From Octopus sinensis (lineage: Eukaryota), in the NCBI RefSeq assembly GCF_006345805.1, contig NC_043011.1, positions 12,028,001 to 12,092,000 on the forward strand: a stretch of DNA of 64,000 nt, in the 5' to 3' direction. A program made the position numbers. Below, piece after piece: positions 53,201-56,200 of the stretch; the first letter of the stretch is position 1; each line of letters begins with the position of its first letter.

Positions 53201-56200
53201 TGTAGAAGCAAGGATTAGAATCTTAGGGCCTGAGAGTCAACCTAGCAAAAACCAAAGTCTTAATAAGTAGGAAGGCAGACAAACTACAAATCCATTCAGA
53301 TAGATGGCCCTGCTTGATCTGTAGAAAAGGTGTAGGTAGAAACTCCATAAGATGTACCCAGTGTAAGCTATGGACACATAAGAGGTGCAGCAATATCAAA
53401 AGAAGGCTAACTGGGAAGATACATTTTGTGTGTGGCGAATGCTCAGGAGCAATAAACAATGAAAACATGCAGAGAACAGCTTCCGTCACATTCCAGCGGG
53501 AAAAATTAGTAGTTGATAGCTTCTGTTACCTCGGTGACCAAGTCAGTAGCTGGGGTGGATACTCTGAAAGTGTAGCTGCTAGAGTAAGGATAGCCCAGGC
53601 AAAATTCAGGGAGCTCCTACCTCTGCTGGTGACAAAGTGCCTCTCGCTCAGAGTAAAAGGTAGACTGTATGATGCATATGTGCAAACAGCTATGCTACAT
53701 GGCAGTGAAACATGGGCCGTGACTGCTGAGGGCATGTGTAAGCTTGCAAGGAATGAAACCAGTATGCTCCACTGGTTGTGTAATGTCAATGTGCATACAT
53801 GCCAGAGTGTAAACGCCCTGAAAGAAAATTTGGACTTAAGAAGCATCAGATGTGGTGTGCTGGTATGGTCATGTGGGGAGAATGGATGAGGATAGCTGTG
53901 TGAAAAAGTGCCACACCCAGGTTGAGGGAACCTGTTGAAGAGGTAGACCCAAGAAGACCTGGGATGAGATGGTGAAGCACGACCTTCAAACATTGGGCCT
54001 CACCGAGGCAATGACAAGTGACCGAGACCTTCGGAGAAGTGCTGTGCTTGAGAGGACCCAGTAAGTCAAGTGAGACCATAACCATAGCCTATGCCAGTGC
54101 TGTATAATCAGCCCATTTAAGAGTAGCCTTCAATCATTGGACAATGAACTATGCTTGTGAAGACCTGTTGAGGCAAGTGAAATCGCTGTCATGGCCAATG
54201 ACAGTACTGCCTGATTGGCACCTGTGCCAGTGGAACGTTAAAAGTACCATTCGAGGGTGATCGTTGCTGGGGCCGCTGACTGGCTCCTGTGCAGGTGGCA
54301 CGTAAAAAGCACCATTTGAGCATGGCCATTGCCAGTACCACCTGACTGGCCCTCATGCCAGTGGAACGTAAAAGCACCCACTACACTCTTGGAGTGGTTG
54401 GCGTTAGGAAGGGCATCCAGCTGTAGAAACTTTGCCAGATCAGATTGGAGACTGGTGCAGCCTTCTGGCTTGCCAGACCTCAGTCAAACCGTCCAACCCA
54501 TGCCAGCATGGAAAACAGATGTTAAACGATGATGATGATGATATATATATATTGTGTAAAAGGAGGCATTCAAAATTTTGTATGATTTTTTTTATTAGTG
54601 CTTTTGTTCATTTTTCAAACTTATCAAGACAACATCAAAATCAAAATGGTAAAAACATTGTTTCGTTGTTCATCTATATGAATCGGATGCTTTTTTGCTT
54701 TATTTATAAGAGGAGAAAGTGAAGCAACTTGGCAGGAGTGGGGTGAATAGACAGAGAGAAAAAGGTTTCAGGGCAATCAAGAAAGAGGAGAGAAAATAAT
54801 AAAAGATGGGGGAAAGGATAGATAGATAGATAGATAGATAGAGACAGACAGAAAGGTTTCTTTTCAATTTGATGTGATCTATTCATTGAAATTTCATTAC
54901 AAAGCATTTTTCTTTTTTAATTCTCCTTTTTTCTTTCCATTGTATACATATCAACATTTGGAAATAGGATGGAAACAATATGAAGAAAAGATGGGAGGGT
55001 GCTGTCATCACTGAAAAATAAAAAAGAGTTGAAAGTCCTATGAAAATGTATATTCCTTTACACTTGTATAGTCAAGTCCCATATTCTTTGTAATTTCATG
55101 TTTTGCATGAACAAATATAAAATATTAGTACAATATGTATTGCTTCGGCAATACATATACTAAAATTGGTAAGATACAGAGAAGATTAGCATGGCCCCTG
55201 TTCAAGGATGACATGCAAATTTGTGAAGCATTCCATATTTTCCAACGGCGGTGCATCAGCATGGCTGCAGCTCTGAGCTGAAACGAAAAAAAACAAAATT
55301 CACAAACTAGAAAAGCACTCGAAGAGTGCAGACATCTGCCAAACCAGCAGGAGTAGCACTACGACGACAACCACCACCACTACCACCATATCACAATCAC
55401 CACCACAACTATCCTACCACTATCACCACCACTACCGCAACCACCAATATCATCAGCAGCATTGTCATTGCGTCCGCTTCAACCACATACACCACCATCA
55501 ACGTTATCATGACGGTTACCTTGACAGTCACTTTCACCACCACAACCAGTATAACCACTGCAATACCACCATCACACAACCAACACTATCATCAACACCA
55601 CTATTTTATGTCAGCTCTAACACACTTTTGGGATCTTTTCGGTTTGAACAGCAGTTTTTAACATAATTTCTAGGTAATTAAAAAATTTTAAACTTCGTAT
55701 ACTGGTAGAATGTGTTTATAAAACATCTTTTTCTCTTGGCTTTATTGAGAAAATTCTATAGTTTGTAAGATATTTGTTGTTTTTTTTTCTTCAATTTCTG
55801 CAATTTCAACCAATCAGTGACATCTATTGAGGTAAAAAAAACATTCTGTGCCATATGAATATGTTCCTCGTAAAAGAAACAGATTGGGTTTATTTACATT
55901 TGTGAAGAAAAAAGGATACCCTTCCCCCCACCCCTAATCCTAAAACAGATTGAAATGGAATACATCGATACGAGGGTCATAATTATGGGTGACAATTTCA
56001 TATGACACTGCTAGAAAAAACTGCCGTTCAAACCGAAAAGATCCGGTTGCTGTAAGTAAAGTGAGAGTCAACAACAATTTCAATGTTGAATTTAGTGTGA
56101 AGAGAGTTCATCATGATTCAGTTCACATCTCCCTCTGATTCATTATTGTCTTACAAACTGTCATGGAGGGGTTTAACTCTTTTGTTACCAGTGTGGGTGG

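What the first reader, a model, noticed from the sequence alone, without database searches (positions are those of the whole stretch)
55137..55293. U6 snRNA-LINE tail chimeric retrocopy
Seen: a full-length U6 ending CCATATTTT is joined directly to about 45 nt matching the CR1-group LINE 3' tail (14309-14354 minus), then A8. Established: U6/L1 chimeras arise in mammals by template switching or RNA ligation during retrotransposition. Inference: an equivalent chimera made by a non-L1 LINE in an invertebrate, and a possible seed of a U6-derived SINE if multi-copy. No clear TSD could be assigned.
Basis: partly seen in the sequence, partly recalled or inferred. Interest (0 to 1): 0.7.

Follow-up and report, generated by a model that had tools for sequence, protein, structure and literature searches.

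The report
U6 pseudogene fused to LINE tail
A dead, full-length copy of the U6 spliceosomal RNA is joined head-to-tail to the short 3' recognition tail used by the LINE and SINE retrotransposons of this genome, the footprint of one retrotransposition accident of a kind already described in vertebrates.

Summary
Window 55137-55241 (+) is a full-length U6 (Rfam RF00026, 102.6 bits, model 1-105) ending in TTTT. It is followed directly by 43 nt (55242-55284) belonging to a two-hairpin 3' tail family. That family has 11 other copies in the window: 8 copies of a tRNA-type SINE, a SINE variant, a LINE 3' end and one further element. A covariance model built without the U6 copy finds it at 40.1 bits, E 2.4e-12.

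The closest tail is the LINE 3' end at 14308-14354 (-), with 35/45 identity. The U6 part looks dead. It has five changes at positions that Rfam marks as conserved, one CpG left, and no TATA at about -30.

Best reading: a single chimeric retrocopy, made by template switching or prior RNA ligation, by a LINE that recognises its own 3' tail.

- No significant target-site duplication exists for the whole unit or for the tail alone.
- Genome-wide copy number could not be tested, because no eukaryotic collection was available.
- The "CR1" label is unverified.
- The SINE-seed idea is untested and mechanistically disfavoured: U6 needs an external promoter, and a T4 terminator lies between head and tail.

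Non-L1 U6 chimeras are already published for platypus and lizard. This is a new member of a known kind.

The parts
55137..55241 (+). Full-length U6 snRNA-derived segment (105 nt). It has an intact 5' stem-loop GTATTGC/TTCG/GCAATAC at 55137-55154, ATATAC at 55155-55160, ACAGAGA from 55176, then AGC, and it ends in T4 at 55238-55241. It is a likely pseudogene.
   Evidence: Rfam RF00026, 102.6 bits, model 1-105. Coordinates and motifs read. In the Rfam alignment, five positions that are upper-case (conserved) in the consensus differ here: gAACg reads GUAAG (two changes), CUGCGCAAGG reads CUGUUCAAGG (two changes), and GACAC reads GACAU (one change). One CpG is left in the body.
55242..55284 (+). 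LINE/SINE-type 3' tail (43 nt). Hairpin 1 lies in about 55246-55267 and hairpin 2 (CAGCT-CTG-AGCTG) at 55268-55280, followed by AAAC at 55281-55284.
   Evidence: A covariance model built without this copy hits 55241-55285 at 40.1 bits, E 2.4e-12, model 1-46. All 20 invariant columns of alignment A1 are shared. It folds into the same two-hairpin shape as three other tails.
55285..55299 (+). A-rich 3' end (G, A8, C, A4, T), taken as the element's terminal simple tract. The exact end is not defined.
   Evidence: Read. Two of the 8 SINE copies with the same tail family also end in A runs, at 28176+ and 50042-.
55130..55136 (+). Candidate 5' copy of a target-site duplication (ACAATAT). Its partner is ACAAAAT at 55293-55299. 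Not significant.
   Evidence: It is a 6/7 match, and 30% of 2985 random positions with the same geometry score as well.
55116..55122 (+). TATAAAA starting at -21 relative to U6 +1. Probably chance, and not at the usual position of about -30 for a U6 TATA box (that position is recalled).
   Evidence: a TATAWA starting between -35 and -15 is found at 9.2% of 20000 random positions. The 100 nt upstream are 75% A+T.
14308..14354 (-). Closest tail in the window. It is the 3' end of a LINE fragment, followed by an (AATC)-like simple repeat.
   Evidence: Covariance model hit at 51.3 bits (a training copy). It is 78% identical to the U6-linked tail, with hairpin 2 at 13/14.
14355..14546 (-). 3' UTR and the last 27 codons of the LINE ORF (DELRDLHGVDTDVFKMKLDLFLFRCPR, then a stop). 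It is cut upstream by the N run at 14547-14646.
   Evidence: N run. No Pfam hit.
30269..30314 (-). Another tail lineage, with hairpin 2 CAGCC-UUCG-GGCUG. It lies 3' of endonuclease-like ORF remnants at 30651-31407 (-).
   Evidence: (60.1 bits).
50585..50630 (-). Tail of a variant SINE, with hairpin 2 CAGTC-TAAT-GACTG.
   Evidence: 67.2 bits. Upstream, the ORF-like read GRPKPCEWIWQTETERS corresponds by eye to the SINE body seen.
38545..38590 (+). Representative tail of the abundant tRNA-type SINE. There are 8 copies, with tail cores at 1206-, 15592+, 27341+, 28176+, 30143+, 34026-, 38564+ and 50042-.
   Evidence: (65-75 bits). Seven of the eight copies (30143+ left out) are 93-98% identical to their consensus.

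Best explanation
This is a single, dead-on-arrival chimeric retrocopy.

The proposed mechanism has three steps. First, a LINE reverse transcriptase of the 'stringent' type recognises a structured 3' tail (two hairpins, AAAC, then a simple repeat). It started target-primed reverse transcription on an RNA carrying that tail and copied its last ~43 nt. Second, the cDNA continued on a mature U6 snRNA. Either the enzyme switched template to the 3' U-tract of U6, or U6 had already been ligated to a 5'-OH fragment of LINE RNA. Third, it copied U6 to its 5' end, giving U6(+1 to T4) + tail + A-rich end in the genome.

The tail donor was a LINE, or an unknown SINE, of the lineage seen at 14308-14354 (-), not the abundant tRNA-type SINE. 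The copy has since decayed.

Shown: the two parts, their exact abutment and shared orientation, membership of the tail in a structured multi-lineage tail family, and pseudogene-type changes in U6.

Inferred: the RNA-level joining, a single event, the donor lineage, and lack of function.
For: - Full-length U6, model 1-105, 102.6 bits.
- The tail was recognised by a model that never saw it: 40.1 bits, E 2.4e-12, full model 1-46, starting at the last T of the U-tract.
- There is no spacer between T4 (55238-55241) and the tail (55242 onward), and both lie on the + strand.
- The tail family is a real structured module. Hairpin 2 is paired in 93.1% of cells, 3 of 6 pairs show double (compensatory) changes, and 0 of 500 shuffles reach the covariation score. 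Slid controls give 7-37% paired. Four tails folded singly all give the same two-hairpin shape.
- The nearest tail is a LINE 3' end (78%; hairpin 13/14), while the SINE tails are 61-73% identical.
- Independent juxtaposition is unlikely. My own arithmetic: 11 other tails in 128,000 strand-positions put the chance that one begins within +/-1 nt of a given site on a given strand at about 3e-4.
- U6 decay: 5 changes at Rfam-conserved positions and only one CpG left, in a window with CpG observed/expected of 0.53.
- There is no TATA at about -30; the only TATAAAA starts at -21, and one occurs by chance at 9% of positions.
- Precedent: U6 chimeras with L2, RTE-like LINEs and their SINEs occur in platypus and lizard, with short LINE parts and TSDs of only 1-9 bp (PMC4476161, section 10, read).
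Against: - No significant TSD brackets the unit. The best is a 6/7 match, and 30% of random sites do as well, so the classical proof of a single insertion event is missing.
- Only one copy could be examined. Genome-wide copy number, orthologous empty sites and the species' own functional U6 sequence were all out of reach.
- The actual donor tail is not in the window. The closest is only 78% identical, and the middle of the tail (CAGCATGGCTGCAG) is closer to the SINE-type tails.
- The 5' stem-loop of U6 is a perfect 7-bp helix, and ACAGAGA and AGC are intact. Without a reference U6 from this species, some 'pseudogene' changes could be lineage-specific.
- A PSE could not be tested.
- In platypus nearly all U6-L2 chimeras are 5'-truncated (only one is full length; PMC4476161), whereas this one is full length.
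Confidence: 0.8

Rival explanations
1. It is one member of a multi-copy U6-headed SINE family: head = U6, tail = LINE recognition module, mobilised repeatedly by the partner LINE, analogous to the U1/U2-headed SINEU of crocodilians.
For: The architecture is exactly head plus minimal tail, with the complete recognition module (covariance model 1-46) and a complete, 5'-intact head with a perfect 5' stem-loop. snRNA-headed SINEs exist (PMC4494074; abstract, Introduction and Discussion read). The tail module is clearly active on other heads in this genome, with 9 SINE-type copies in 64 kb.
Against: - The window holds only 1 U6 hit, against 9 SINE-type copies.
- A T4 run, the RNA polymerase III stop signal, lies between head and tail. 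A polymerase III transcript from U6 +1 would mostly end before the tail it needs.
- No paper describing a U6-derived SINE was found in searches. The only paper holding 'U6-derived' together with 'SINE' was PMC4476161, which uses the phrase for pseudogene counts.
- Copy number was not testable here.
Confidence: 0.07
2. Two independent events: a pre-existing U6 gene or U6 retrocopy, and a later, strongly 5'-truncated LINE/SINE insertion that happened to land right after its terminator.
For: No TSD proves a single event. 5'-truncated copies of this tail family exist in the window, for example SINE 30143+ and 34026-. This family leaves short or no TSDs, so a separate insertion could go unmarked.
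Against: - The tail's 5' limit would have to fall within a base of the U6 3' end, in the same orientation. That is roughly 3e-4 by my arithmetic from the 11 other tails.
- The tail alone has no flanking repeat; the best is 4 of 5.
- None of the 11 other tails stands alone as a bare 43-46-nt stub. All continue upstream into SINE or LINE sequence, with 30285- uncertain.
- A U6 retrocopy without a tail would itself be hard to make with a stringent LINE (argument in PMC4476161, section 10).
Confidence: 0.06
3. A functional or recently functional U6 gene whose 3' flank merely resembles the tail, or was co-opted.
For: High Rfam score, full length, an intact 5' stem-loop, ATATAC, ACAGAGA and AGC. A TATAAAA lies upstream at -21.
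Against: - There are five substitutions at positions conserved in the Rfam consensus, including two in the internal stem-loop's loop.
- The TATA is about 9 bp nearer than usual and is expected by chance at 9% of sites.
- The terminator is reduced to T4 followed by C.
- The tail match is far beyond chance (E 2.4e-12).
Confidence: 0.04
4. Chance resemblance or assembly artefact.
For: The region is A+T-rich and repeat-rich, and the window contains one assembly gap, although 40 kb away.
Against: The E-values are 1.4e-25 for U6 and 2.4e-12 for the tail. There are no Ns within 40 kb of the locus. Sequence is continuous across the junction.
Confidence: 0.02

Closest known systems
U6-L2 and U6-Mon-1 chimeras of platypus; U6-L2, U6-RTE-like and U6-AnolisSINE2 chimeras of Anolis (Doucet et al. 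2015, PMC4476161; section 10 read)
   Same: U6 is fused in sense to a short 3' terminal piece of a non-L1, tail-recognising LINE or its SINE. TSDs are small or absent, and the end is a simple repeat rather than a long poly(A).
   Different: Those are vertebrate cases and many loci were counted (40 in platypus), whereas this is one locus in what looks like an invertebrate genome. Platypus U6 parts are almost all 5'-truncated (one is full length), and this one is full length. The LINE clade here is not established.
Mammalian U6/L1 chimeric retrocopies, made by template switching (cited in PMC4494074 and PMC4476161) or by RtcB ligation before retrotransposition (Moldovan et al. 2019, PMC6789731; search listing and start of abstract only)
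   Same: A full-length U6 ending in its U-tract is joined directly to the 3' part of a LINE in the same orientation.
   Different: L1 is a 'relaxed' LINE with a poly(A) end, 7-20 bp TSDs (recalled) and L1 parts of very variable length. Here the partner carries a structured 43-46-nt tail, there is no clear TSD, and only a short A-rich end.
SINEU (U1/U2-headed SINEs of crocodilians; Kojima 2015, PMC4494074; abstract, Introduction and Discussion read)
   Same: An snRNA-derived head lies on a retroposon mobilised by a LINE. Oligo-T inside the element argues against RNA polymerase III transcription, and template switching is invoked for its origin.
   Different: SINEU are proven multi-copy families with subfamilies, they are mobilised by Tx1-type LINEs, and their heads are U1/U2, not U6. 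Multi-copy status is untested here.
tRNA-derived SINE/LINE pairs sharing a 3' tail (CR1- and L2-related tails of bivalve SINEs with conserved stem-loops and compensatory changes; Nishihara et al. 2016, PMC4824008; passages read)
   Same: A tail module with conserved stem-loops and compensatory changes is shared between a LINE and SINEs. In this window the same module sits on a tRNA-type SINE, a SINE variant, LINE fragments and the U6 copy.
   Different: There the head is a tRNA with an internal promoter, so the element can propagate. A U6 head lacks that.

Membership tests
U6 spliceosomal RNA sequence (Rfam RF00026) | Covariance-model score at or above the gathering score, over the full length | tested here: met
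   102.6 bits against a gathering score of 44, model 1-105 of 105.
Functional U6 gene | Conserved core positions unchanged | tested here: not met
   ACAGAGA, AGC and the 5' stem-loop are intact. However, 5 positions that are upper-case in the Rfam consensus are substituted. No same-species reference U6 was available.
Functional U6 gene | Upstream type-3 RNA polymerase III promoter: TATA near -30 and a PSE near -55 (positions recalled) | tested here: inconclusive
   The only TATAWA starts at -21 and one occurs by chance at 9.2% of positions. The PSE consensus for this lineage is unknown, so it was not testable.
U6/LINE chimeric retrocopy | U6 from +1 to its U-tract is fused without a spacer, in the same orientation, to a LINE 3' terminal segment | tested here: met
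   U6 is 55137-55241 and the tail starts at 55242.
U6/LINE chimeric retrocopy | The LINE part runs to the LINE's own 3' end (tail plus terminal simple tract) | tested here: met
   The covariance model is matched 1-46 of 46, through AAAC, followed by G, A8, C and A4.
U6/LINE chimeric retrocopy | One target-site duplication brackets the whole chimera | tested here: inconclusive
   The best pair is ACAATAT / ACAAAAT (6/7), and 30% of 2985 random sites score as well. By eye, two full-length SINE copies of this tail family (28176+, 50042-) show about 4-5 bp candidate duplications and two others (27341+, 38564+) show none clear, so the test has little power.
U6/LINE chimeric retrocopy | The partner sequence is really the 3' end of a LINE | tested here: inconclusive
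   The closest tail (14308-14354 -) follows a 3' UTR and a 27-codon ORF end whose FK..LD..L-type motif I recall as typical of CR1/L2 ORF2 C-termini.
SINE (snRNA-headed, SINEU-like) | Many copies with independent flanks and shared diagnostic changes | not testable with these tools
   There is one copy in 64 kb. No eukaryotic genome collection was available.
SINE (snRNA-headed, SINEU-like) | Own means of transcription through the tail | tested here: not met
   T4 lies between head and tail. No internal promoter is known for snRNA genes (PMC4494074). This is an inference from sequence, not an expression test.
SINE (snRNA-headed, SINEU-like) | A 3' tail shared with a partner LINE | tested here: met
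CR1-clade LINE tail | Reverse-transcriptase phylogeny places the partner in CR1 | not testable with these tools
   No RT sequence is attached to any tail of this family in the window.
CR1-clade LINE tail | A 3' hairpin followed by a short tandem repeat instead of poly(A) (feature recalled) | tested here: met
   Two hairpins with compensatory changes. Ends seen: an (AATC)-like repeat, (AAGTAAAAGAG)n and (ATTTAAGG)-like repeats. L2 and other clades share this feature, so it does not discriminate.

The most novel reading that the evidence does not exclude
The locus is one copy of a so far undescribed U6-headed SINE family of a mollusc/cephalopod-like genome. In this reading, read-through of the weak T4 stop, or transcription from flanking promoters, lets a U6 head carry the LINE recognition tail. 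That would make it the first RNA polymerase III snRNA-headed SINE class.
Probability: 0.06. Interest if true: 0.65.

Novelty: new member of a known kind. Interest (0 to 1): 0.3.

Why it matters
It shows that the U6-capturing accident known from L1 in mammals, and from L2/RTE in platypus and lizard, also happens with the structured-tail LINEs of this apparently invertebrate genome. That supports the view that template switching, or ligation, onto small RNAs is a general property of LINE machinery, and that it is the route by which SINE heads acquire LINE tails.

The window also gives a clean picture of one tail module shared by at least four element lineages, with compensatory changes in its second hairpin. 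As a single decayed locus it has no wider consequence unless it proves to be multi-copy.

Tried and rejected
- TSD search for the whole unit, for the tail alone and for U6 alone: nothing above chance, so it decides nothing either way.
- Promoter check: a TATAAAA at -21, judged to be chance.
- LINE clade: Pfam on seven ORF pieces near tails and LINE remnants gave only weak sub-threshold PHD/C1 matches on an unrelated LINE remnant and nothing on the tail-linked ORFs. The protein atlas on the endonuclease-like ORF 30651-30929 (-) gave only 'hypothetical protein' clusters, with a mollusc taxon for one member and an Exo_endo_phos lead at a 15% share.
- ARAGORN found no tRNA in the window, although the SINE head looks tRNA-like.
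- BLAST of the LINE 3' UTR against the window found no second copy.
- A literal search of the paper library for a 24-nt piece of the SINE found 0 papers.
- Literature searches for U6 plus SINE in octopus or molluscs and for 'U6-derived' plus SINE returned nothing relevant beyond Doucet 2015. The library is not exhaustive, and supplements were not consulted.
- Pfam on six further ORFs elsewhere in the window: no hits.
- Rfam at relaxed threshold around the locus: only U6 plus sub-threshold microRNA/lncRNA noise.
- The bacterial/archaeal genome collection and the phage, plasmid and E. coli collections were not used, because they cannot hold this sequence. The closed metagenome and viral collections stayed unchecked.
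Full report
**What is there**

Reading the window and scanning it against Rfam shows one and only one gathering-level RNA family hit in 64 kb. It is U6 spliceosomal RNA at 55137-55242 (+), 102.6 bits against a gathering score of 44, E 1.4e-25, covering model positions 1-105 of 105. One search repeated this on 53500-57000 at a relaxed threshold; it found nothing else but sub-threshold noise.

By direct indexing the U6 part is 55137-55241, 105 nt. Its features are:
- a perfect 7-bp 5' stem with a TTCG loop (55137-55154);
- ATATAC (55155-55160);
- ACAGAGA (from 55176), followed by AGC;
- a 3' end of CCATATTTT, with T4 at 55238-55241.

Immediately after the last T comes CCAACGGCGGTGCATCAGCATGGCTGCAGCTCTGAGCTGAAAC (55242-55284).

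**The tail is a member of a real, structured tail family**

The core CATGGCYRCAG (one mismatch allowed) occurs 12 times in the window, against 2.81 expected; 0 of 100 shuffles reached 12. Inspection of the 12 sites shows:
- eight copies of one tRNA-like SINE (cores at 1206-, 15592+, 27341+, 28176+, 30143+, 34026-, 38564+ and 50042-);
- one variant SINE (50601-);
- one further element lying 3' of endonuclease-like ORF remnants (30285-);
- the U6-linked copy (55260+).

In the alignment of all twelve (A1) the U6-linked tail shares all 20 invariant columns.

To avoid circularity I built a covariance model from the eleven other tails only (A2 and R1) and ran it unfiltered over both strands of the window. 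The eleven training copies score 51-75 bits. The U6-linked tail scores 40.1 bits, E 2.4e-12, matched over model positions 1-46 of 46 at 55241-55285. The next hit scores 14.3 bits (E 0.016).

RNAalifold predicts two hairpins followed by AAAC. For the second hairpin, counting pairs on A1 gave 93.1% of cells paired. Three of six pairs carry changes on both sides (UA/CG, CG/UA, AU/CG), and 0 of 500 column shuffles reach the covariation score. Only 7-37% of cells pair when the partner is slid by 1-3 columns. The twelve rows include eight near-identical SINE copies, so the independent lineages number about four and the shuffle figure overstates the support.

Folded singly, the U6-linked tail, the LINE tail, a SINE tail and the 30285 tail all adopt the same two-hairpin shape. 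Their z-scores are -2.2, -0.9, -3.1 and -1.4, so none is individually compelling.

Downstream of AAAC each lineage carries its own simple repeat: (AAGTAAAAGAG)n or an A run in the SINE, an AATC-like repeat in the LINE, and ATTTAAGG-like repeats at 30285.

**Which tail is closest**

Over the 45 columns from CCAA to AAAC, the U6-linked tail has 35 matches, 8 mismatches and 2 gaps (78%) to the LINE end at 14308-14354 (-), with 13/14 in hairpin 2. It is 73% identical to the 30285 tail, 61% to the 50601 tail, and 64-73% to the eight SINE tails.

In the 5' half it is slightly nearer the SINE-type tails (19-21 of 26, against 18 of 27). So the actual donor is not in the window. It was probably a relative of the 14324 LINE lineage.

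That LINE fragment keeps only its last 27 codons (DELRDLHGVDTDVFKMKLDLFLFRCPR, then a stop) and about 110 nt of 3' UTR before the N run at 14547-14646. I recall FK..LD..L-type C-termini, and hairpin-plus-microsatellite ends, as typical of the CR1/L2 group. I did not try to fill or bridge the N run.

**Is the U6 a gene or a pseudogene?**

Against the Rfam consensus printed, five positions written in upper case (conserved) differ:
- gAACg reads GUAAG (two changes);
- the CUGCGCAAGG loop region reads CUGUUCAAGG (two changes);
- GACAC reads GACAU (one change).

The body retains a single CpG, in the TTCGG loop, in a window whose CpG observed/expected ratio is 0.53. Several differences are of the CG-to-TG or CG-to-CA type when compared with the consensus line by eye. 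I had no U6 from the same species to compare, so some differences may be lineage-specific.

Upstream, the only TATAWA starts at -21 (55116). Such a motif starting between -35 and -15 occurs at 9.2% of 20000 random positions in this A+T-rich window. It also lies about 9 bp nearer than the usual U6 TATA position, a position I give from recall. A PSE cannot be judged without other U6 loci of this genome. Together this favours a dead copy.

**One event or two?**

I searched for direct repeats bracketing the whole unit, the tail alone and U6 alone.
- Whole unit: the best pair is ACAATAT (55130-55136) / ACAAAAT (55293-55299), a 6/7 match. In the null test 30% of 2985 random positions with the same geometry do as well.
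- Tail alone: nothing better than 4 of 5.
- U6 alone: nothing.

So the TSD criterion is uninformative in both directions. This is expected for this tail family. By eye, two full-length SINE copies (28176+, 50042-) show only about 4-5 bp candidate duplications, and two others (27341+, 38564+) show none that is clear. Doucet et al. report 1-9 bp TSDs for platypus U6-L2 chimeras (PMC4476161, section 10).

The argument for a single RNA-level event is therefore geometric. The tail begins at the base after the U-tract, in the same orientation. With 11 other tails on 128,000 strand-positions, the chance that an independent tail starts within +/-1 nt of a given site is about 3e-4, by my arithmetic. 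In addition, none of the other tails is a bare 43-46-nt stub.

**Mechanism**

The best-supported account is that a tail-recognising ('stringent') LINE reverse transcriptase initiated on an RNA bearing this tail and copied its last ~43 nt. It then continued on U6 snRNA to its 5' end. Either it switched template, or U6 had been ligated to a LINE RNA fragment beforehand.

Both routes are documented for L1. Template switching is reviewed in PMC4494074 and PMC4476161. RtcB ligation is reported in PMC6789731, of which I saw only the search listing and the start of the abstract. A single locus cannot separate them.

**SINE seed?**

The idea could not be tested, because no eukaryotic genome collection was available and the window holds one copy. 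It is mechanistically disfavoured for two reasons:
- U6 genes depend on external promoters. [quoted passage not shown]
- The T4 between head and tail is an RNA polymerase III stop signal. Kojima uses the same argument against polymerase III transcription of SINEU (Discussion).

For scale, seven of the eight tRNA-type SINE copies here (30143+ left out) are 93-98% identical to their local consensus. That family is or recently was active, and it outnumbers the U6 unit 9 to 1 in this window.

**Comparison with what is known**

- Doucet et al. 2015 (PMC4476161, section 10 read in full) screened vertebrate genomes. They found U6 chimeras with L2 and Mon-1 in platypus: 40 chimeras, almost all with 5'-truncated U6 and short L2 parts. 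In Anolis they found chimeras with L1-, L2- and RTE-like LINEs and with AnolisSINE2. They also report one unresolved U6-CR1-like case in turkey. They concluded that template switching to U6 is a general property of non-LTR retrotransposons.
- Kojima 2015 (PMC4494074) described U1/U2-headed SINEs.
- Nishihara et al. 2016 (PMC4824008, passages read) described CR1- and L2-related SINE tails with conserved stem-loops and compensatory changes in bivalves.

My searches for U6 with SINE in octopus or molluscs, and for 'U6-derived' with SINE, returned no paper describing such a chimera or SINE in a mollusc. The library is partial, and I saw no supplements. The locus is thus a new member of a known kind, not a new kind.

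**What stayed open**

- Genome-wide copy number.
- The species' own U6 genes and their promoters.
- The orthologous site in relatives.
- The partner LINE's clade.
- The organism itself. One atlas hit names Mollusca for a single cluster member, and nothing more.
- The closed metagenome and viral collections, which were not consulted.

**Verdict**

The core interpretation (a chimeric U6/LINE-tail retrocopy) is well supported at about 0.8. The SINE-seed extension is unlikely, at about 0.06. Interest is modest.

Noticed in passing
window 1190-1235(-), 15573-15618(+), 27322-27367(+), 28157-28202(+), 30124-30169(+), 34010-34055(-), 38545-38590(+), 50026-50071(-), with bodies about 330 nt upstream of each: There are eight copies of one tRNA-like SINE. 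It has an A/B-box-like head (GGCTGTGTGGTAAG ... GGTTCAGTCCC), an internal (TA/TG)n microsatellite, and the shared two-hairpin tail, and it ends in (AAGTAAAAGAG)n or A runs. Seven of the eight (30143+ left out) are 93-98% identical to their consensus. ARAGORN does not call the head a tRNA.
   Followed up: partly
window 30269-31407 (-): Endonuclease-like ORF remnants lie at 31222-31407, 30938-31165 and 30651-30929. About 340 nt downstream there is a tail of the same family whose second hairpin has a UUCG loop. This is either an internally deleted LINE or two adjacent fragments. Pfam finds nothing. The atlas gives only hypothetical-protein clusters with an Exo_endo_phos lead.
   Followed up: partly
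window 53227-53889 (+) and 16117-16748 (+): Two remnants of another LINE-like ORF end (GLR[VL]NLAKTKVLISRKA...) carry a cysteine-rich, PHD-like stretch. PHD scores 22.7 bits, below the cut-off of 24. No tail of the two-hairpin family follows them, so this is a second, different LINE lineage.
   Followed up: partly
window 55340-55600 (+): Directly downstream of the chimera lies about 260 nt of ACC/ACT-rich imperfect repeats (CACCACCACTACCACC...). A (GATA)n run lies upstream at about 54820-54850.
   Followed up: no
window 12842-14303: About 1.4 kb of (TA)n/(TATG)n-like microsatellite abuts the 3' end of the LINE fragment at 14308. The only N run of the window (14547-14646) cuts that LINE upstream.
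   Followed up: no
window 50761-51135 (+): An ORF piece holds ...IKGIPMGGNCNPLLADLYL..., which I recall as reverse-transcriptase-like. Pfam gave no significant hit.
   Followed up: no
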